The notes under the pieces were generated by a model, which ran no database searches, had not been told where the DNA came from, and saw nothing but the letters and a program-made list of their open reading frames with translations. A DNA stretch of 64,000 nt, taken from positions 11,100,001 through 11,164,000 of the forward strand of contig CM075990.1 in the NCBI GenBank assembly GCA_038087875.1. Direction: 5' to 3'. Shown piece after piece: positions 13,180 to 61,194 of this stretch. Origin of the DNA: Malacoraja senta (taxonomy: Eukaryota). Each line of letters begins with the position of its first letter. Position 1 is the first letter of the stretch. The position numbers were made by a program, and so were the translations under genes.

Positions 13180-13400
13180 GAACACAGAATGCTGGATTAA
13201 CTCTGCGGGTCAGGCAGCATCTCTGGAGAGTAGGAATAGGTGACGTTTTGGGTCGGAACCTTTCTTCAGAAGGTCAAGCAGGGTTCCGACCCGAAACGTC
13301 ACCTATTCCTTTTCTCCAGTGATACTGCCTGACCCGCAGAGTTATTCCAGCACTTTGTGTCGACAGTATAAGCCAGCATCTGCAGAACTTCCTACGCATA
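13180..13400. mobile_element. Palindromic Penelope-derived mini-element
   Basis: Inverted arms meeting near 13270. Confidence 0.85.
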
Positions 13401-15501: not shown

Positions 15502-16061
15502 GGAGGAAGTCAGGTCATGGCTTCATGCTGAGCCATTGATTCAAGATGTGCTGTGCCCATCTGAACTCCCATTCCTTGTAAATCTCAGGAAGAATGAAAA
15601 ACCTTATTAGGCCTCTCTACCTTCCAGTCCCTAATTCCATCCTGAGACAGGATATACAGTAGTGGCTCACAACTTACCATCTCATTGTACCCTGCGTGTG
15701 CCTCCCATTCTGGGACCTGGTACCTCCGACAGAACTGCACTCAATCAATCCTTGAGTGGGACTGAGCCAAAAGTTGAGTTTGTACTTTCTGGGGAAACAA
15801 TGAAGTGGAAGCTGTGGGATCAGGTGTTTCAATAATAAGATCACAGTTTGATAGTATAGGATGCGAGTTTGAGGGCTGAATGGCATTCATTGTCCTTTCT
15901 AATGTTGTTACTTAAATAGAATAAGAGAATGTGCAGCATGAAAACTGTTCCACTCCGTGTGTACATTTGTGCTTCACTCGCCTAAATCTATCGGCAGAAC
16001 TCTCTTTCTCCTGCATTTACTCCAGTAAATCCATTAGTATGTCCCTGCTACCAGCCACAAC

Positions 16062-16460
16062 CAAAGATCCTATATCAAGCAAGATAGGTCACTCGACGAA
16101 AAAGACGTAGTACGGTCATGGGCAGATTCATGGGTAATTTTCGGCCCCAATTCCGTAACCGGCTTCCGTCTCCGCACCAAAGATCCCATAGCGGAGCAAA
16201 GATACTAGTGCGGAGAAGGAAACCGGTTACGGAAACATCCTCGTAAAAATAAAAGTTCTTTGGTAAAAATCTTCTCCTCATTTTAAGAATTATAATTTAT
16301 TAACACAAACTGTTTCCCCGCAACGTTGATTACACTGCGAGTCGGGTCGGGTTAATGAAATGGATGAGAAAAAGGCCCACGTTCCGCTCCGTTGATTACT
16401 ACACGTCAGCCTATTGCATTTAGCAAAAGTGGTCTATCTTGCTCCGATATAGGATCTTTG
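16062..16460. mobile_element. MITE with ~32-bp TIRs and 8-bp TSD, probably P-element superfamily
   Basis: TIR caaagatcctatatc(a/gg)agcaagatag..cact at both ends; TSD gccacaac at 16054-16061 and 16461-16468. Confidence 0.85.
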
Positions 16461-16734
16461 GCCACAACCACCACTGCCTTTGTTAGCAAGTTCTGCATTC
16501 TCCCATTCTATGAGTCAAGAAGTTGGTCCTAAATTGCACATTGGCCATCTTGTATTCACAGGCACTTTTTTTGATCTTGCTGGCAAAAGGAAACATCTTC
16601 TCTGCATGATCCTTTCATAATTTCAAAAAACGATTTCCATTTTTCTGGAAATTTTTGGTTTATTTTTGCCACTTGTCCTAGCTGTTTGCATTGAATTTTG
16701 GATGCAGTGAACAACACAAAGAGGATGCTATGTC

Positions 16735-18477: not shown

Positions 18478-18692
18478 AAAGCTCCTTCCTTCCAAGTACT
18501 ATAAGTTCTCACAATAGGCAACATGAATGAGCTAATACCCTTTATTTCTAAGTTCTGTTATTGGCAGTGGGGAGAACTGACTGTATTTTTCTGCAACTCC
18601 ACGGGATCCTTTGTATCCGAGAGAGTGGACAGGGATCTGATTAAAGTCCCATTCAAAAATCGTCACCTTTGCAACGTAGCACTCCCGCGGGA
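18478..18692 (-). mobile_element. Decayed DeuSINE/SacSINE-like element
   Basis: Reverse complement of 19147-19472; Deu-domain-like ttaa.c.gag.ccc...aaagatccc. Confidence 0.5.
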
Positions 18693-19146: not shown

Positions 19147-19472
19147 CCCTGTGGAAGTGCAACATTGCAGCGGTGGCAACTTTTTGATGGGGCTTTAACC
19201 AGAGCCCTTTCCACTCCCTTGGATACAAAAGATCCCATAAAGCTGCATAAAAATATAGTAGTCTGCACAATAACTTAGCTCTCAGCTCGGAGAACTTTCC
19301 CGAAACGTTGCCTATTTCCTTTGCTCCATAGATGCTGTCTCACCCGCTGACTATCTCCAGCATTTTTGTCTACCTTCGATTTTCCAGCATCTGCAGTTCC
19401 TTTTTAAACATCAGCTCATTCATGTTGTTTTTCTGTGAGAATATATGGTACTTGAAAGGAAGGAGTTTTTTG
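19147..19472 (+). mobile_element. Decayed DeuSINE/SacSINE-like element interrupted by a pLTR (~19298-19410)
   Basis: gtgcaacattgcagcggtggcaactttttgatggggctttaaccagagccc...aaaagatcccat. Confidence 0.5.
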
Positions 19473-36354: not shown

Positions 36355-36514
36355 TCACTTACGAAGGGACTTGGTTCCTCACAGGGCACAATCTCAAACC
36401 CAATATTACAAGAGATTATATTAACAAGTAAATGCTGGATGATTATTTTATAATTTAGGCTATCCATTTTAGGCTACTCCAGAGAACTGTGTCATCGGGA
36501 ACCACTCTAATTCA

Positions 36515-36850
36515 GGTCCTCCAATTTCCTGAGGTCTTGGATAGAGCTGTTCCCAAACCAGGCTGTGATGCATCCCGATAGAATGCTTTCTACGGCGCAT
36601 CTGTAGCAGTTGGTGAAGGTTGTTTGGGACATGCTGAACTTCCTGGCCCTTCTAAGGAAGTAGAGGCTTTTGTGTGTGTTCTTGGGCATAACTTCGACGT
36701 GGCTGGTCAAATAAATATTCCGAGGAACTAGGAACCTGAAGCTTTCGACCATCTCTACCTCAGTGCCATAAATGTATACCTGAGTGTGTGTCTTGCTTTG
36801 CTTCCTGAAGACAATCACAAATTCCTTTGTCTTGCTGACATTGAGAGAGA
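36515..36850 (-). mobile_element. Rex1/Babar-like RT fragment
   Basis: EVEMVESFRFL...LYFLRRARKFSM...YRCAVESILSGCITAWFGN. Confidence 0.85.
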
Positions 36851-37176
36851 ATACTCATTTGTAATTGCCCTTTGAAAGTGGTGGTGAGCCATCTATTTGA
36901 ACCGACGCAGTCCATTTGTAAAGGTACTCATCATTGTCGCTGTGTGGAAAGCTCCTTATTTAGACCCAGTATTGATAAGGGAGCTTTGACCATGAGGAGG
37001 GGGACTTGCAGATGATGGCATTCCCTCTCGTCCTGGATGTGGAGAGATTGCTGTGGGGAGATTCAGGTGTAAAAGAGCATTAACTCCTTCATCTCAAATT
37101 CATCTGTTGATTTACTTAAATGAGTTAATGGTGGTGTTGAACTCAGAGAGCAGCACTAGAGTATCACTAGATGTTC

Positions 37177-39815: not shown

Positions 39816-41899
39816 CAACACTACCCCACACACACTAGCATCTTATGTTTATACCAAGCCCATTAACCTACAAACCTGTACGTCTTTGGGGCATGGGAGA
39901 AAACAGAAGATCTCGGAGAAAATCCACGCAGGTCACAGGGAGTACGTACAAACTCCGTACAGACAAGCACCCGTAGCCAGGATCGAACTCCGGTCTCTGG
40001 TGCCGTAAGGCGGAGGCTCTACCACTGCGCCACCATGGTTCTCACACTACCTGTCTCACCACTTCCATAAGCCCACCACCCTCTGTGTGAAGATGTTGCC
40101 CCTTATTGGAGCCCCTCGGTGGAGGCAGGTTTCTCTGGATGCTTTCAAGAGAGAGCTAGATAGGGCTCTTAAAGATAGTGGAGTCAGGGGATATGGGGAG
40201 AAGGCAGGAACGGGGTACTGATTGGGGATGATCAGCCATGATCACATTGAATGGCGGTGCTGGCTCGAAGGGCCGAATGGCCTACTCCTGCACCTATTGT
40301 CTATTGTCTATTGTCTATTCTCTATTGTCTATTGAAACCCTTCAAGGAAATAGGCAATGTTTCAGGCCAAAACCATTCTTTAGACTGGAGGAAATAGGTA
40401 ACGTTTTGGGCCGAAACCCTTTGGGTTTCGGCCCAAAACGTTGCCTATTTCCTTCGCTCCATAGATAGAAACATAGAAACATAGAAAATAGGTGCAGGCG
40501 TAGGCCATTCGGCCCTTCGAGCCTGAACGGGGTACTGATTGGGGATGATCAGCCATGATCACATTGAATGGCGGTGCTGGCCCGAAGGGCCAAATGGCCT
40601 GCTCCTGCACCTATTGTCTATTGTTTATTGTCTTATGTCCTGTTTAAATCTTTCACCTCTCACATTAAACCTATGCTTTCCAGATTTTGAGCCACTTTTC
40701 TGGGGAAAAAGGCTGTGCATTGAAGCATATTTAGGCCTCTCATAATTTTATTTAACCTCTGTAAGATCACCTCTCCGTCTCCTATCCTCCAAAGAATAAA
40801 GTCCTTGTCTGCTCAAAGTCTCCCTATAACTCAGGCCCTTCGGTTCTGCTGAAAGCAAGGGTTTCTCATTGAACCTGTACCTCACCATTCTAGTGCACAT
40901 GACAATAAAGTTGACTTGATTTCTAATGCATTAACATTGACTAAACCATGGCCATCAGATGGAAGATGAGACTCAGAAAGGCACCATCTATTTGACAAGC
41001 ATATACTAGGAGAGAGCAGCTAAAACAACAAACCTCCAGAAATTAGTGTGCCCACATTTCAGCACTCGGCAATGCCTTTGACTTGATAGATGATTTTTTA
41101 ATCGTGAGTCAGTTTAGGTAACGTCATTTTTAAATGGAGTGTTAACTTGTGGTTTAAGTGAAAAGATAAATCCAAGGTGAAACTTTTCAAACTTTGAACC
41201 TCATTTTTATTAAAGGAAAAAACAATTGACTTGTTGCAAACTGTGACACAACTACTGAATAAAAGTAAAAAAAAGAGAACAACAGTGGTTTGCTTGTTCA
41301 AGTTCAGGTTCAAGATCACATTAATTATCACATACACCAATTAAGGGACAGTGATATTTGAGTTGCCATACAGCTATACAAGTAAAAAGAACGCAACACA
41401 CAATAGAATTTAACATAAACATCCACCACAGTGGAATCAGCATTTTTCACTGTGATGGAAGGCAATAAAGGTCAGTCATCTTCATCCTTTGTTCACCCGT
41501 GGTCGGGGCCTTGAACCCTCCGCAGTCGCCGCTACAGATGTTCAGGCCCTCTCGTCGGGATGATCGAAACTCCGACGTTGGGATGGATCGGAACACACTC
41601 TTGGAGTTCCCAAATCGGCCGCTTTCTGACGATGTGATGCCGATTTTCCCGAGACAGCATTGGTGGTACCATTATCAATGGTTGAGGTATCCGTTGTAGG
41701 TAATCCATGTAACAAAAAAGCTTATCAATGTACTTCGGTACATGTGACAAACTTAACATAGAAAATAGGTGCAAGAGTAGGTCATTCGGCCCTTTGAGCC
41801 AAAATCAGTGCCCCGTTCCTGCCTTTTCCCCATTTCCCTAGATTCCGTTCCGAAACAAAACAAAATTAAACTGAACTAAACTGAACCTAAACTAAAATT

Positions 41900-43093: not shown

Positions 43094-43308
43094 TGTAGGA
43101 AGGAACTGCAGATGCTGGTTTACACCGAAGATAGACACAAAATGCTGGAGTAACTCAGGGGGACAGGCAGCATCTCTGGATAGAAGGAATGGGTGATGTT
43201 TCTGGTCGAGATCCTGAGTCTGAAGAAGTCTCAACCCGAAACGTCACCCGTTCCTTCTATCCAGAGAAGCTGCCTGTCCCCCTGAGTTACTCCAGCATTT
43301 TGTGTCTA
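43094..43308. mobile_element. Palindromic Penelope-derived mini-element with 17-bp TSD
   Basis: tcttgggatgtcccatg at 43077-43093 and 43309-43325. Confidence 0.9.
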
Positions 43309-45324
43309 TCTTGGGATGTCCCATGCTTCTCACACCAATGCAAGACACAGCTGCAAGGAAGGGAATGTGTTAGTTTGTGCGCTCAAGGTCCCACATATAG
43401 CAAGTTCACAAGTTACAGGAGTAGAATTAGGCCATTCAGCCCATCAAGTCCACTCCGCCATTCAACCATGGCTGATCTCTGCCTCCCATTTTCTTGCCTT
43501 CTCCCCATAACTTTTCACACCTGTTCTAATCAAGAGCTCGTCTATCTCTGCCTTAAAAATATATAAAGATAAAGCAAAACACAGCACATCTCTAAAAAAG
43601 GGGAAATGGAGATGGTTATCAAAATTAAATTAAGATATGTAAAACCGATCTTTGATATTTTTGCTGTTGAGGGAGAATGTTCTGTGATATCTTTAGTGAA
43701 AAGTTACAACAGCTTCTGCACCTTAATTAAAAGGGTTAAACAAACGCTCTGTTATAAATTGTAATCTGTGCAATTCCAAGTATTTTATTGACGTGGAAAC
43801 ATTAAAGGCTCAAGGATTGAGTACAGTTCTCAAATGAGCTGAGCGACAAGACTGAATACTTTATTAAATTCTTTATTAGTCGCTCAGATATTCTCCGGCT
43901 GACTTCAATTCAATCGGTTGTTATATTTAATGAAATTTGTTTCTTCTAATGTTAGTGCAAAGTTTCATGCACCAGAGAGGCTTGAACGAGATGTTGGGAG
44001 GAATGTGAACCTGAAATACATTAGTGGTGTTCCCTGCTCTGTCTTCACTCACTGGGTGCAGCAAAGGTCAGCTTCCTAGGACATCTGTCTCAGCAACAAG
44101 TTTAAGAGACAAGTACAAGCATTTAGTGAAATGAGTTCTGGCTGATTAATAACCTCATGGTGTTGTATTCGGTGGGAGGGGAGAGCTCAAATAGTGAGAC
44201 TTGTGGGTCGGAATTATATTTTCATTCTTGCACAGATTTCTTCGATGAAGTGAAGGTGGGGGGTAAAGTAAAAGTAGAGGTGAGGAAAGTCTGAATATAT
44301 GCTCTCGCCCCTCAAGACTTTAGTGGTTTGAGATAATGTGGAAGTTTCGGACACAGGTGGCAAGAGTGCAGCTAATTCTCAGCTTTAAAGTTCTCATTCT
44401 TGTGTCCACATCCTTCCAGTTCTAATTGCCTCCTGCAACCTCCTCTTGTCCACTGAGTGTGTTCTGGTCATTAATTATTTAGTTCTGGTCATCGACTTTG
44501 CTCCAAGGACTGATTACAACTCATCTTGGATGTGAAGACTTGAGGTATAGATTCTGACCACCCACTTGGTCCTCAACAGAAGTCCATCATAGGACCCAGG
44601 AGGTAACAGGAGTTTGGAAAACATGGACAACATCTCATATCCATGGAGCCACCTCTCTGCGAAGGCAGATTTTGAGGATAAAATTCATCTTCAGTGTGAG
44701 GGGATTCATTTCCTTCAGCTCTGAGTAAAAGGGTATTTGAAGATAGCATCCCCTAGCCCCAAACATGCCCCAGTCCTCCAGTAAAAGTTGCTCTTCCCTT
44801 GGGATGTTCTGAAGTAGCCAAAGATGCAAACATTCCACAAACTATCTTGAGTCGGAAGGAACTGCCAGAGTAACACAGCAGGTCAGGCAGCATCTCTGGG
44901 GAAAGGGAATAGGTGACGTTTTGGGTCGGGACCCTTCTTCAGATGAAAAGTCCCAACCCAAAACAGCCTCGACCCGAAACATCACCTATTGCCTGACTCG
45001 CTGAGTTACTCCAGCTTTTTGTGTCTGTCCACAAACTGTCTTGTTGGTTATCTTTGGGATGTTCCAAAGACATGAAGATTCGTTATTGCTGAGCTAGGAT
45101 GGATCTGCAAATCCCCTGGCCGAAAATAATGAGCTAAAACAATGAGCTATCCTCTGCAGGGCAAGTTCCAATTCTTGGTTTGTTAGCGAGCCTAATTTCA
45201 ATTCCCTTTCCTCAATTGTTAGAAGCGCTGCAGTTTAATGTTCCCACTGTGAGAAGCTTGATCCCTGCCTCCTTTATGTATACTCTGCTTTCGCATGAAT
45301 AATGCACTCTGTTAAATGCTCCGG

Positions 45325-50478: not shown

Positions 50479-52081
50479 CATATTGTGAGAATGCGCAAAT
50501 TCCACGTAGAAAACACTGGAGGTCAGGATTGAACCACTTTGAGGCAGCGGCTCTACTAGATGTACCATTGTGCTGTCCTTCACACATGCCCATCAACATC
50601 TCTATCACTCTCCCACCAACCACATGCAGGTAACTTTCAATAACCTACAAACCAGCATGTCTTTGGGATGTCGGAGGAAGTCCATGTGGCCACAGTGAGA
50701 ACGTGAAAACTCCATACAGATAGCATCTGAGTTCAGAATTGAACCCAGGTTCCTGGTGCTGAGAGACAGCTTCAGGGCCGATAGAGTGCCGAGCTTTTGC
50801 TTGCCGGTCCTAACATCATCTCTTGTGACTCGGTCGCACTTTTTGTTCAATGGTTGCTCCTTTGCGATACTACACTATCTTCACGATGTGTGTTAGAAAC
50901 ACAACTTCCTGTTGTTGAAATGGGGATGGAGAATCAACATCCCTCCACATTGGTTCTGACATACGCCATATCCGAACCAGTGAAACAGCAAACAGTTCAA
51001 ACATGGGATGACTTTTCCGGTCAAACACACTTTGTCATCTGCACTGCTTACCATCTATTGCCTTGATAAGTACTCTGCAGTTATTTCCAACTCTGTAATA
51101 AATGTTCCTTCAGCTTGTTCTATCAATCTCTTGAAAATATCCAAATAGTGCTCCACAAGATTTGGTGTTAAATACATGCCTAAGCCAGAAGGATTAGAAG
51201 GCAAAGATCGACACAAAAAGCAGGAGTAAATCAGCAGGACAGGCAGCATCTCTGGAGAGAAGGAATGGGTGACATTTTGGGTCGAGACCCTTCTTCAGAA
51301 TGACCCTTCTTCAGCCTGTCCCGCTGAGTTACTCCAGGTTTTTGTGTCTATCTTCGGTTTAAACCAGCATCTGCAGTTCTTTCATACACAGAAGGCAGCT
51401 ATGAAGGCACATAGGAAGAGATTATTTAACTCCTGACGTTGTTTTATGGCTGACCTCCATGTATATTTTTCTTCCTCAAGTCCTTAACACAGTCAATGAA
51501 CACAATCTGTCAATTTCAGATTTACAACTAAGGATTGAGCCAGCCATGCTTGCCATTTTGTGGAAGAGAATTCCAACCTTTGATCCCCAATGCGCGCTGA
51601 TTAATTTGGAAACCACTCCGGAAAGGCCTGATGCAGATATTTGGATCACATTCCTGCTCCTCGAATCCAGCCGGACTGTGTAACGTTACTGAAAGATTCA
51701 GATGGCAAAACTAATGAATGAAGGATGATTTATTTACAACTGCTGCACGACCCCAGGATAAGTGTGAATTTGTCATCATTCAGAACATTTCCAGACGATT
51801 TATTATTTCATGGTGTTATGAGATCGGATTGGTAAAGTGTGGTCCAAGCTGATGACCAATGGTTTTCACAGCAACGACTACAGTGCACAATTATAGATGT
51901 GGATGGGCCAGGTAAGAACATGTGATTTCCTTCTCTCAGAGGCTTTAATTGGGTTTTTTCTGATAACCCAAAAGTTCCATGATCATTGATACTGAGTTTA
52001 GTTTGGTACGGTACTTTATTTGTCACGTGTACCGAGGTACAGTGAAATTCATTTTTGTTTACAGTTCAGTATAAGTGTCAC

Positions 52082-52727
52082 CAGCGGCGGAAAACCCGGG
52101 GGGGGGAGCAGAGGGGACATGTCCCCCCCATGTTTTGAGTGGTGGGGGACACCCCCCCCCAAGTTTTTGTGATCCGTATTATAAAATCTCCGCTTTCCGC
52201 GGGACAGTGGGGGTGGGACTGATGATCGAGGGCGCGATGATTGGAGGAGGGAGGAGCGGGGGGGGGGGGGGGGGGGGGTGGGACTGAGGATAGAGTGCGG
52301 CGATTGGAGGAGGGACACAGACCTGCGCCTCATCCGTAGGCAGGATCGATCCCGGCCGGGTCTCCGGCGCTGTCCCAAGTGCCCCCCCCCCCCACGGGTG
52401 GCCAGAGAGGTCGGGAGTCAGACATGAGCTGTGCCCCCAGGCCCACAGCCAGCGCAGAGAAACAGCACTAAACCCAGCTCAACTCTGCCTGTCCCGCCAC
52501 GTTAACCTGCCTGGACTTGCGGGAAATATGGCCAGCGCGGAGAAGCAGCGCTGGTGTCCCGTCAGTCCAGGCAGGGCTGTAGTTAACCTGGTGAGACAGG
52601 CAGTGTTGAGCTGGGTTGAGCCTCCGAAGCCTCGCGCACGTGTGAGTGAGTGTGCGAATGAGCGCGCGGCCGCCAAAAAATTGTGTCCCCCGTCCCCTCC
52701 ATGTTTTGATAGCGAGTTCCACTCTTG
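52082..52727. mobile_element. hAT-like MITE, GC-rich
   Basis: 8-bp TSD agtgtcac at 52074-52081 and 52728-52735; imperfect TIR cagcggcggaa/ttccactcttg; repeated subterminal tcccc.ccatgttttga. Confidence 0.75.
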
Positions 52728-53301
52728 AGTGTCACTATACATAAGCACTTAGATAAGATAGACATATTGGATAAGCATCTCAGATATAGTACAAGTGTCC
52801 AACAGTTGTACACCGAGACAGTATACAGAGTCGCCAGTTTGGCACCATTTTCAAGTCCCAGTTGTTGTAAGTGCAGGGATCTTGATCAGACCATGAAGGT
52901 CTGTTGTTCTGGCGGCGTTGCAGGGTCAGCCTGGCCAAGCGTAGCCATGTTGTCCTCCGCCACTACTCCTTTATTCTCACGTGCACTGAGATACAGTGAA
53001 AGGCTTTTGTTGCCTGTTAACCAGCCAGCAGAAAGACAATACATGATTGCTGATGCTGTTTTCTTGAATAATTTTGGATTAATTAGTCAAATTTGATTAC
53101 CCGAATCATGGTTGGGTTTGAATTAGTCTCAGATCATTACGCTAGCATTACTAGGTTGGCGATGCAGCCATTACAGGAACCTACTATTCCAGAGCTCTTG
53201 CTACTGCACTTTTAAACTCGCATATTTGCTAATTGATATCCTATATTACCTGTACTTGGATTTTCAAGAAGGCTCTCATCCCAAAATGTCACCCATTTCT
53301 T

Positions 53302-57734: not shown

Positions 57735-57945
57735 ATGTGTATGAAGGAACTGCAGATGCTGGTTTAAACCGAAGATAGACACAAAATGCTGGAGTAGCTC
57801 AGCGGGACGGGCAGCATCTCTGGAGAGAAGGAATGGGTGACGATTCGGGTCGAAGAAGAGTCTCGACCCGAAACGCCACCCATTCCTTCAGTCCAGAGAT
57901 GCTGCCTGTCCTGCTGAGTTACTTCAGCATTTTGTGTCTATCTTT
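57735..57945. mobile_element. Palindromic Penelope-derived mini-element inside a CR1 tail
   Basis: Inverted arms; atatggaggga duplicated on both sides. Confidence 0.85.
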
Positions 57946-58730
57946 GGATATGGAGGGATATGGATTATGTGCAGGCAAATAAGAGGTTGACATAAAGTGT
58001 TGGAGTAACTCAGCGGGACAGGCAACATCTCTGGACAACATGGATAGATGATGGTCAATAAGTCTGAAGAAGGGTCCTGACCCAAAACATCACCTAACCA
58101 CGTCCTCTAGAGACTTACTCCAGTGTTTTGTGTAATTTTTTGTAAATAAGCATGTGCAGTTCTTGTATTTCCAGATAAGTGGTTGTCTTGACATCATGTT
58201 CTGCACAGTCATTGTGGGCCGAAGGGACTGTTCCTGTGTTGCACTGTTTTATGTTACATATTCTTTAAATGGTGGGCCAGGCATGAGGGGCTGATTTGTC
58301 TACTCCTGCTCCTGTATTCTCGTGACTGTGTCCCCTCTAGATAAAGTAGTCTAGTTGGGTACGTGTGCCTGTATTTGAAGTTGCAGAATGGCGCAGACCT
58401 AAGTTAGGCAACTGTCTTTGTGAATCTCATCTGCAGAGATGCTACTCCTATGATAAGTCTACTTTTAAACCATGAGTGGATGGGCACCTGGATGATTTGC
58501 CCTCCCATGCCTTGTTCCACCTGGTCCTGTACCTATTTGTCTGTCTGTGATGTTCTTGATGCCTGTGGTATCCAATGCAGCAGGAGAAATGCAATGTGAA
58601 GCCAACATGTCCATTGAAAGTCAGTGCATAGTGCAGAAACCTTGGCAATGCAAGCTAGACTCAGTGTTAATTGAGACTAATTTATAAAGCTATGAGACTG
58701 GATCAGTGCAGCAGAAAAAAAGCTATCGGG

Positions 58731-58758
58731 CTGCCGAGCAAAGATCTTTGCTGCCGAG
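58731..58758. mobile_element. Probable excision footprint of the 16062-16460 MITE family
   Basis: ctgccgag-CAAAGATCTTTG-ctgccgag: fused left and right TIR ends between 8-bp direct repeats. Confidence 0.8.
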
Positions 58759-61194
58759 TGCCATGGAACAGCAAGGCAGATAATGGAATATGAGTGTGGG
58801 CTATTTAAATAGAATGAAATTGGGGGGGGGGGGAGGGGGGGGGAAGCAGATCAAGTGAAGGCTGATTATTTTGTGAGAGATTGAAACCTTTTATTCTGTA
58901 TTTTCTGAAATAACTGAACATTGGCTATTCCACTGTTTAAAAATTTGGGGAGAATTTTATGTTGGAGCATTCTTTCTAGCACTTTCCTAAATTTCTACTG
59001 GAAATTCGGATTAGCTCAACTGCAGTGTTTTAAGATACATGAAAATGAGTGCAAAATCATTCAAGTCAACCTTAATTTCAATCATAATTTTTTGCCGAGA
59101 GTTGTGAGCGGACATTTCTGGGTCGAGTTATCCTTCAGTTGAGGTGATCTACACCTTCAGATGCATGTAGAGGAACAATTGCTCGACTTTAAGGAAAATA
59201 ACGGGATGTGTCCCCATCACCCGACTATAAAAAAATGTTCCTCACTCAGTATGAAAGAATGTTGTCACATTGCTGTTTGTTGGAGTTTCCTGTGTAATAC
59301 CACTCCAACAACTATAAAGTACTGATTCAGATGCAAAGTATTTGTTCTTGTGCAACATCTTAAGCTGATGCGGTAAAAGTTCAAGTTGTTGTTTTCTGTC
59401 TGTGTACTTTGGCACAAAAGTAGATTCTCTGAAGCTATGGAATATATGAGAGAGACTTGGTGTTCTTTACCCACAAATGAAAATATAATGTGAAGGAAGA
59501 TTTATTACAGCTCCAAAAGCTTGGGTGAAATTAACCCATCGGACCATTCTTACCCTGCGTTTCGTGACATTAATCTTCTGAAGCCCAGCAGGTGTGAATC
59601 CTGCCAACATTTTATTGTCTGTGCATTAGTTTGCACTTAATCACACTCTGCTAGAGGTACTGTAATAGGTATGTCTTTTGAATTGTCAAGATAGTGAGTC
59701 TTTAGGTGCACCAGTGAGTGAAAAGCATCCAGTTCAATAACATCAACAATTGTATTTACCTAGTGTTCTGGAAATGCCTTCATAAATCTTTCCATCTCTC
59801 CTTCTGTAAGACCCATCTGTCACCTGTTCTAATTTTGCTTGGTATTACATTTTGTTTCACTATGCTCAGAAAGGCATTTTGGAATGCTTCAAAGGTTAAA
59901 AAAATGCCCAAAAAAGCTCTGAAGCTGGTGAATGATTTGGGTTAGGATCAGTCTTAATCAAACAGAGGTTGAAAATGTTTAATTCACTTGCTGTAATCTT
60001 CTGGCACATAATCAACAGTAACATGCTTATAATGTAAGTGTTTTAGTGCATAATATAGCCAAATAATGTTTAGCTGCGATAATAAAGGCATTAATAAAGT
60101 CCAGAGATATGGAGGGGTAAGGAGTGAAAACGATAGATCAAAGCAGATGCTGGTAAGGAAATGTAGAATGGTTTGTTGATAGCTGAGGGTTAGTTGTATG
60201 CCTTTTTGTCATCTTCCCCTCAGCTAACAATGAGCCGTTCTAAAGTCTAGTATAAAGGAAAGAGTTTCAGCACAGATGAGGCAATGCAGTGGGAGAGTTG
60301 GGTGAAATGGACACAAAATGCTGAAGTAACTCAGCGGGACAGCTAGCATCTCTGGATAGAAGGACTGGATGATGTTTCGGGTCGAGACTCTCCTTCAGAT
60401 GACCCGACCGACTCGTCTTGACCCGAAACGCCACCCATTCCTTCTATCCAGAGATGCTGCCTGCCCCGCTGTGTTACTCCAGCATTTTGTGTCTACCTTC
60501 AGTGCAAACCAGCATCTGCAGTTCCTTCCGACACATTATTGTGATGGAGATGGGTGGTATTATTGAGCTAGGCTTAGTGATTCCAGGGATACGTGTTCTG
60601 AAATTCCACTCTGGGTCAGCTGTGACATAAATGTTACAAATGGACTGTCTCAAGTTGAGACAACTGCCGAAGAGAAGGATGAAGCTGGTGATGCTAAATG
60701 AAGGCAATGGCCCTGCGAATTACAACCCCCACATAAATGCAAATCTTAGTTTTCAGCCCGGAATGGAATTTTCCTCTCAATCTTCATGATTTAAACTGCA
60801 GCCAAGAAGTCTGTTTTCGGCAAATACTTCATCTCAGCTCTTTTTACTTGGTTTGCTTAAAATTGTTGGCGTTGAGAATGAAGGTCACGATAGCGGGTGC
60901 ACAATTCACTGATCAACAGCTGCAATGGTTTCTAATGTGCCGTGGGAAGCCACACAACTTCCCTGCAGGTAGTTTGAATTCCCACTGCTTTACCTTATGC
61001 ACCAGTACTTAAAAAGCAAGGGAGTATCATTCTGGAAATGACAAGGACCAAGGAGTCATCTTCACAGTTTCCTGCTGGATGCATGATCAGCCGTGAGGAA
61101 TGCCTCAGTCTGTGGTCCTCTCCTCTCTTGAGTTTGAAGGTTATACATTTCTACATCGTACTTCAGCAACTTGTGCATTAAATCGGGGACTCAC

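What the first reader, a model, noticed from the sequence alone, without database searches (positions are those of the whole stretch)
58731..58758. P-element-style excision footprint: two TIR ends fused between 8-bp TSDs
Seen: CAAAGATCTTTG between perfect ctgccgag repeats. It equals the first 8 nt (caaagatc) and last 8 nt (gatctttg) of the MITE at 16062-16460, overlapped at the GATC microhomology. Known: Drosophila P transposase makes 17-nt staggered cuts that leave TIR sequence at the donor site, so end-joining leaves TIR remnants inside the TSD, whereas hAT excision goes through flanking hairpins and does not normally leave TIR ends. Inference: this family was moved by a P/THAP9-type transposase in the germ line of a cartilaginous fish; vertebrate P-type activity is sparsely documented.
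Basis: partly seen in the sequence, partly recalled or inferred. Interest (0 to 1): 0.72.

Follow-up and report, generated by a model that had tools for sequence, protein, structure and literature searches.

The report
Fused transposon ends, probable excision scar
A 12-base palindrome between two copies of an 8-base repeat is almost certainly all that is left of a small jumping gene at a spot it once occupied; its shape fits the unusual deep cut made by P-element enzymes, but one scar with no enzyme gene found cannot prove that.

Summary
CAAAGATCTTTG (58739-58750) lies between exact 8-bp repeats and equals the first and last 8 nt of a young 399-bp, 8-bp-TSD MITE (16062-16460), overlapped at GATC. 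The expectation is about 5e-7 per window. It is an end-fused remnant of that family (about 93%). The best mechanism (55%) is P-type deep staggered cutting followed by annealing of the two identical tails at GATC. For it: both repeats are intact, both arms are within 17 nt (only 0.3-1.4% of possible MITE deletions are), the TIR is 32-33 bp as in insect P elements, and no subterminal repeat array shows. The family is not proven. CAAAG also fits the hAT motif, Zisupton also makes 8-bp TSDs, no THAP site or transposase was found, and aborted gap repair or stem-base slippage can give the same product. The empty-site test could not be run: two relatives lack the whole 184-bp block around the site. 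No genome was held, so n = 1. Verdict: a new member of a known kind of scar, worth a cheap genome-wide test.

The parts
58731..58738 (.). left copy of the 8-bp direct repeat (inferred target-site duplication)
58739..58750 (.). 12-bp palindromic remnant = first 8 nt + last 8 nt of the MITE sharing 4 nt
58743..58746 (.). GATC, the self-complementary 4-mer at which the two ends overlap (inferred annealing register)
   Evidence: one of three 4-nt registers within the first 17 nt of the TIR
58751..58758 (.). right copy of the 8-bp direct repeat, identical to the left, CpG kept in both
58600..58783 (.). 183-184-bp block that holds the scar and is absent in two related organisms; insertion here or deletion there is not settled
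   Evidence: table 5: one contig each in runs X1 and X6 joins across it
16062..16460 (.). 399-bp non-coding MITE, the only full member of the family in the window; CpG-rich, so probably young
   Evidence: CpG o/e 1.28 vs 0.43
16054..16061 (.). left 8-bp TSD of the MITE
16461..16468 (.). right 8-bp TSD of the MITE
16062..16093 (+). left TIR, 32 bp
16428..16460 (-). right TIR, 33 bp
16178..16204 (+). third, internal TIR-like copy (89% to the right TIR over 27-28 nt)
16151..16234 (.). internal 27-bp inverted repeat (arms about 16151-16177 and 16208-16234) whose loop is the internal TIR-like copy

Best explanation
An element of the MITE's family inserted here and duplicated 8 bp of target (inferred). 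A P-superfamily-type transposase later excised it, cutting one strand at the element's end and the other well inside the TIR (17 nt in Drosophila). That left two identical 3' single-stranded TIR tails on the chromosome (inferred, by analogy). Identical tails can pair only at self-complementary words. They annealed at GATC, the flaps were trimmed and the gaps filled by end joining, which left both TSD copies and 8 nt of each end sharing 4 nt. Shown: the sequence, its match to the MITE ends, the intact repeats, and that GATC is one of the three longest registers available. Inferred: insertion, excision, cut depth and the family of the enzyme. The scar itself most likely has no function.
For: Non-random: 4.9e-7 per window. 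GATC, TATA and ATAT are the only 4-nt self-pairing registers within the first 17 nt, predicting scars of 12, 22 and 24 nt; the observed scar is the 12-nt one. Only 213 of 53,646 possible internal deletions of the MITE (0.4%), and 3 of 213 with microhomology of 4 nt or more (1.4%), keep both arms within 17 nt, and the one shortened copy in the window is of that class. Drosophila P cuts 17 bp inside its TIR (PMC7776569, passages). Its repair junctions mostly keep both TSD copies plus parts of the 17-nt tails, often joined at short microhomologies (PMC2895639, Tables 1-3 as far as shown, Rad51-mutant flies). hAT and MULE leave hairpins on flanking DNA instead. The TIR is 32-33 bp with an 8-bp TSD, like Drosophila P (31-32 bp) and Anopheles P (27-31 bp), against 12-16 bp for the lizard hAT rows shown and 11 bp for Ac/Ds. 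No array of short subterminal repeats shows in the k-mer counts; the enriched words are TIR words. The MITE looks young.
Against: n = 1 scar and n = 1 MITE. No transposase: 0 of 332 frames hit a transposase family; the 2 hits were unrelated. No Drosophila-type THAP site within 1 mismatch (0 observed, 0.94 expected) and no excess at 2 mismatches (9 vs 9.7). CAAAG plus an 8-bp TSD is also the hAT signature, and Zisupton makes 8-bp TSDs (PMC12730594). The best-described vertebrate P element, zebrafish Pdre2, has 13-bp TIRs of different sequence, so TIR length is only a loose guide. The uniform-deletion baseline is a weak rival: of the 8 joins with microhomology of 4 nt or more that stay inside both TIRs, 3 are within 17 nt, so a process acting at the stem base reaches this class easily. 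The empty site was not seen: runs X1 and X6 lack the whole surrounding block.
Confidence: 0.55

Rival explanations
1. A hAT (or Zisupton or other 8-bp-TSD) transposase cut the element out cleanly. Repair began copying it back from the sister chromatid, stopped after a few bases on each side, and the new ends were joined at GATC (aborted gap repair).
For: CAAAG fits YARNG and the TSD is 8 bp (PMC3014272). Aborted gap repair with microhomology is described for Ac, P, Tc1 and Mutator and in MITE birth (PMC3814204, passages). No P-specific feature (THAP site, transposase) was found.
Against: It needs both hairpinned flanks restored to perfect 8-bp copies and synthesis to stop very early on both sides. 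Arms this short are 0.3-1.4% of possible deletions under a uniform model. The TIR is longer than those of the hAT families in the passages read, and no subterminal repeat array was seen.
Confidence: 0.23
2. No transposase acted at removal. In single-stranded DNA the two TIRs paired into a stem, and replication slipped (or a break was repaired) between the two GATC copies, which are direct repeats at the stem base. This is like the 'nearly precise excision' of bacterial Tn10 (name and mechanism recalled, not checked in a call).
For: The MITE folds with its TIRs paired (-76.9 kcal/mol, z = -7.5 against 100 shuffles). GATC lies in the perfectly paired first 15 nt on both sides. This route leaves both TSDs intact by construction. 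Deletion derivatives can arise without transposition (PMC3814204, passage).
Against: The arms are short (15 nt perfect) and about 335 nt apart. Slippage between the 8-bp TSD copies, which removes everything, would be expected to compete (inference). It gives no reason for a cap near 17 nt: 5 of 8 registers inside the TIRs lie deeper.
Confidence: 0.15
3. It is not a transposon remnant: a templated insertion from break repair (short direct plus inverted repeat), or chance, that happens to match the MITE end.
For: The palindrome runs 2 nt into each repeat and the repeat can be read as 9 bp. 17 perfect palindromes of 12 bp or more occur in the window. The site lies in a block of unknown origin that two relatives lack, and no empty site was seen.
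Against: It would still need six bases (half the palindrome) to match the end of the MITE, the only short non-overlapping TIR element with an 8-bp TSD in the scan, and exactly that family's 8-bp repeat length; joint expectation about 5e-7.
Confidence: 0.07

Closest known systems
Drosophila P-element donor-site repair junctions (PMC2895639 Tables 1-3; mechanism in PMC7776569)
   Same: Both 8-bp TSD copies kept, with short pieces of both TIRs (each within 17 nt) between them, joined at a short microhomology.
   Different: Here it is a natural genomic fossil in what looks like a vertebrate; the TIR sequence is unrelated to CATG-type ends; the enzyme and its cut depth are unknown; there is one case.
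P-MITEs of Anopheles gambiae and BuT5 of Drosophila (PMC1562414, PMC3698922)
   Same: Non-coding element of a few hundred bp, 8-bp TSD, TIR near 30 bp (as in the Anopheles P masters).
   Different: Those were tied to P masters by shared ends and, for BuT5, THAP sites. No master and no such site was found here. The internal third TIR inside a hairpin did not appear in the passages read.
Zebrafish Pdre2 / zfTHAP9 (PMC10983969)
   Same: Vertebrate P-type element, CA...TG ends, 8-bp TSD, internally deleted copies, excision shown in cells.
   Different: 13-bp TIR plus a distant 12-bp subterminal repeat, against a 32-33-bp TIR here. The parts read do not map the depth of the vertebrate cut.
Non-autonomous hAT elements (lizard hAT families PMC3014272; maize Ds1 PMC3260210)
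   Same: 8-bp TSD, YARNG terminus, about 400 bp (Ds1).
   Different: Shorter TIRs in the rows seen (11-16 bp), subterminal repeats in Ac/Ds, and excision through flanking hairpins that leaves no TIR on the donor without gap repair.

Membership tests
P superfamily (P, 1360, Galileo, THAP9-type) | 7-8(9)-bp TSD | tested here: met
   exact 8-bp repeats at both the MITE and the scar; not diagnostic alone
P superfamily (P, 1360, Galileo, THAP9-type) | CA...TG ends, TIR commonly about 27-32 bp in insect P elements | tested here: met
   32/33-bp TIR starting CA vs PMC1562414 and PMC3698922; exceptions exist (Pdre2 13 bp, BuT5 3 bp). The motif CANRG is recalled; its source paper was not held
P superfamily (P, 1360, Galileo, THAP9-type) | internal THAP-domain binding sites near the TIRs | tested here: inconclusive
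   0 matches within 1 mismatch to the three Drosophila sites of PMC3698922 Table 1 (0.94 expected), 9 vs 9.7 at 2 mismatches; zebrafish THAP9 prefers other sites (abstract of PMC10983969), so absence does not exclude
P superfamily (P, 1360, Galileo, THAP9-type) | autonomous partner encoding THAP plus GTP-binding DDE transposase | not testable with these tools
   no genome held; no transposase hit in 332 window frames; TIR-pattern scans gave only unpaired short matches
P superfamily (P, 1360, Galileo, THAP9-type) | deep staggered donor cut, seen as a cap on retained TIR length | tested here: inconclusive
   the one scar keeps 8 + 8 nt at a register within 17 nt: compatible, but one case cannot show a cap
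hAT superfamily | 8-bp TSD and YARNG terminus | tested here: met
   CAAAG and 8-bp TSD
hAT superfamily | short TIR with arrays of subterminal repeats (typical, not absolute) | tested here: not met
   TIR 32-33 bp; enriched 5-7-mers are TIR or internal-hairpin words; compare PMC3260210, PMC3014272
hAT superfamily | end-joined footprint made of trimmed or inverted flank, with no TIR | tested here: not met
   both flanks intact and TIR kept; a hAT origin needs gap repair as an extra step
hAT superfamily | hAT transposase in the autonomous partner | not testable with these tools
   as for P
Zisupton (KDZ) | TIRs and 8-bp TSD | tested here: met
   PMC12730594 passage; its terminal motif and cut chemistry were not found in the passages read
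Transposon scar (any family) | single-copy empty site or full element at the orthologous position | tested here: inconclusive
   X1 and X6 lack the whole 183-184-bp block; the other two runs laid did not cover the site (4 of 10 listed runs laid)

The most novel reading that the evidence does not exclude
A recently active P-superfamily family with insect-like 32-bp TIRs, unlike zebrafish Pdre2, has been excising in the germ line of this (probably cartilaginous) fish. Its scars would be a natural record that the deep, roughly 17-nt staggered cut is conserved in vertebrates, and the genome-wide length spectrum (predicted peaks at 12, 22 and 24 nt and a hard cap) would measure the cut depth without any biochemistry.
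Probability: 0.42. Interest if true: 0.62.

Novelty: new member of a known kind. Interest (0 to 1): 0.4.

Why it matters
End-fused scars of P elements are well known from fly experiments, so the kind of object is not new. If the P assignment holds, it adds a vertebrate lineage with recent natural P-type excision and gives a sequence-only readout of how deep a vertebrate P/THAP9-type enzyme cuts; the parts of the zebrafish THAP9 paper that I read (2 of 7 parts plus passages) do not map this. It would also offer a way to classify non-coding MITEs by their scars when TIR and TSD fit both P and hAT. If a rival holds, it is an ordinary extreme deletion derivative. No paper on this family or on P scars in cartilaginous fish came up in searches (0, 2, 25 of 114, 0 and 2 papers listed, judged by title and abstract start except the two from one search, which I read in part). 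The library lacks most subscription journals and does not include Repbase or Dfam, where the family may already be named.

Tried and rejected
Whole-genome scan: no genome held. Empty site by contigs: 10 runs listed, 4 laid on 58350-59150. X10, labelled with the same organism as the best holder X9, is covered only up to 58707 and not over the scar or from 58863 on; only about 88% of the run was read, so the hole proves nothing. X8 (share 0.05) covered only the G-run. All are taken as chance. Pfam: 332 frames scanned (all 330 stop-free frames of 60 aa or more, plus 2 shorter ones over the scar); 2 hits, a sub-threshold phage domain and ALKBH8_N at 36510-36854; no transposase and no host-gene domain; shorter exons would be missed. 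Rfam: 0 matches. Other members of the family in the window: none beyond the MITE, its internal copy and the scar. The inverted pair 18580-18691 / 19148-19259 was checked and is unrelated. A coding reading of the scar was rejected: the two frames over it that were scanned are 57 and 31 aa, without hits. Target-site consensus cannot be judged from two sites. Earlier findings by place and by MITE sequence: none. Yuan and Wessler 2011 was not held. No supplementary files were read; TIR tables in supplements of the P-MITE papers might bear on the terminal motif.

Full report
Observation. The sequence is as described: an 8-bp repeat (58731-58738), a 12-bp palindrome (58739-58750) and the same 8-bp repeat (58751-58758). 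The element at 16062-16460 is a 399-bp non-coding MITE with an exact 8-bp TSD and TIRs of 32 and 33 bp, 88% alike, the first 15 nt perfect. The 12-mer is its first and last 8 nt overlapped at GATC. Of 266 non-low-complexity exact 8-bp repeats with spacers of 2-45 nt (122 of 388 dropped as low complexity), only this one has a spacer with 5 or more complementary end bases. The expected number of any left-end/right-end join of 12 nt or more between exact 8-bp repeats is 4.9e-7 per window. A loose version of the rule is met by chance 0.2 times per window (40 simulations), so the weight lies in the exact form. The locus can also be read as a 9-bp repeat or a 16-bp palindrome, but the 8 + 12 + 8 reading is the one that matches the MITE.

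Context. The window is repeat-rich and gave no host-gene or transposase domain in 332 frames and no Rfam match. The MITE is the only full member of its family here. It looks young: CpG observed/expected is 1.28 against 0.43 for the window, a value reached by 1 of 319 sliding windows. It also carries a third TIR-like copy (16178-16204) as the loop of an internal 27-bp inverted repeat. That the host is a cartilaginous fish is a recalled likeness of its repeats, not a result.

Orthologous site. Ten runs from four coded organisms hold part of the region; four were laid. In organisms A (X1) and B (X6) one contig each joins across 58600-58783, so both lack the entire 183-184-bp block that contains the scar. 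A and B share 17 of the 36 listed substitutions against the window, so they are not independent, and without an outgroup the block may be their deletion or an insertion in this lineage. The empty-site test is therefore neither passed nor failed. If the block is an insertion, the scar may have been copied in from elsewhere.

Mechanism. Drosophila P transposase cuts 17 bp inside its 31-bp TIR (PMC7776569, passages). Repair junctions in Rad51-mutant flies mostly keep both TSD copies and parts of the 17-nt tails, often joined at short microhomologies (PMC2895639, Tables 1-3 as far as shown). Two identical tails can anneal only at self-complementary words. In this TIR the longest such words within 17 nt are GATC, TATA and ATAT, predicting scars of 12, 22 and 24 nt; the observed scar is the first. 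Among all possible internal deletions of the MITE, 213 of 53,646 keep both arms within 17 nt, and 3 of 213 among those with microhomology of 4 nt or more. hAT and MULE enzymes instead leave hairpins on the flanks (PMC5499845, PMC4763223, passages). In rice, only 8 of 94 excisions left exactly two TSD copies, and 43 lost flanking sequence (PMC4423477, passages; mostly Mariner, Harbinger and Mutator). The TIR length matches Drosophila and Anopheles P elements (PMC3698922, PMC1562414, passages). I put P-type cutting plus microhomology joining at 0.55.

Against it. CAAAG with an 8-bp TSD is equally the hAT signature (PMC3014272, passages), and Zisupton also makes 8-bp TSDs (PMC12730594, passages). 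No Drosophila-type THAP site is present above chance. Zebrafish Pdre2 has 13-bp TIRs (PMC10983969, parts 1-2 of 7 and passages), so TIR length is a loose guide. Aborted gap repair shortens elements of several superfamilies at microhomologies, and deletion derivatives can arise with no transposition at all (PMC3814204, passages). The MITE folds with its TIRs paired (z = -7.5), and 3 of the 8 registers of 4 nt or more inside both TIRs lie within 17 nt, so slippage at the stem base reaches the same product without a deep cut. Scans for the TIR in metagenome and viral contigs gave only chance-like matches. Rivals: another 8-bp-TSD transposase with aborted gap repair 0.23; transposase-free stem-base deletion 0.15; not a transposon remnant 0.07.

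Works like versus member of. It works like a P-element scar in geometry. Membership of the P superfamily is untested on the defining feature, the transposase; the features met (8-bp TSD, CA...TG ends) are shared with hAT, and only TIR length, the lack of subterminal arrays and the scar itself lean to P.

Novelty. The kind of scar is known. Searches showed no paper on this family or on such scars in cartilaginous fish, within a library that lacks most subscription journals and the repeat databases. PMC4168063 and PMC3260210 were seen as passages.

Verdict. Observation confirmed; first reading partly supported; new member of a known kind; interest 0.40. The boldest reading, recent germ-line activity of a long-TIR P family with a conserved deep cut in a vertebrate, has probability 0.42 and would merit 0.62.

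Noticed in passing
window 16151-16234: Inside the MITE a 27-bp inverted repeat encloses a third TIR-like copy as its loop; it could be a template-switch product from repair or an internal binding array.
   Followed up: partly
window 58600-58783: 183-184-bp block missing in two related organisms, with 2-nt microhomology in one reading; it has no evident TIRs and no copy elsewhere in the window.
   Followed up: partly
window 43125-43315, 57769-57947, 13182-13360, 60310-60493: Abundant family of about 190-bp near-perfect palindromes (80-87-bp arms, 9-26-nt spacer) with many truncated copies, usually next to a second short repeat; unclassified here.
   Followed up: no
window 18580-18691 and 19148-19259: Old inverted pair, 112 nt at 78%, with a common repeat inserted between the arms; unrelated to the MITE.
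   Followed up: partly
window about 52000-53000: The most GC-rich stretch sampled (0.57), with a 144-aa open frame at 52294-52728 and no Pfam hit; possibly a promoter or first exon.
   Followed up: no
window 58801-58812: 12-bp AT-rich palindrome just outside the missing block that resembles a MEF2 binding site (motif recalled); contig X1 runs across it.
   Followed up: no
window 36510-36854 (-): Frame hits Pfam ALKBH8_N above its cut-off; probably the C-terminal part of a LINE ORF2 fragment (recalled association), not a host gene.
   Followed up: no
window 40406-40436: 31-bp hairpin with 14-bp arms between 6-bp repeats, apparently a collapsed centre of the palindromic repeat family.
   Followed up: no
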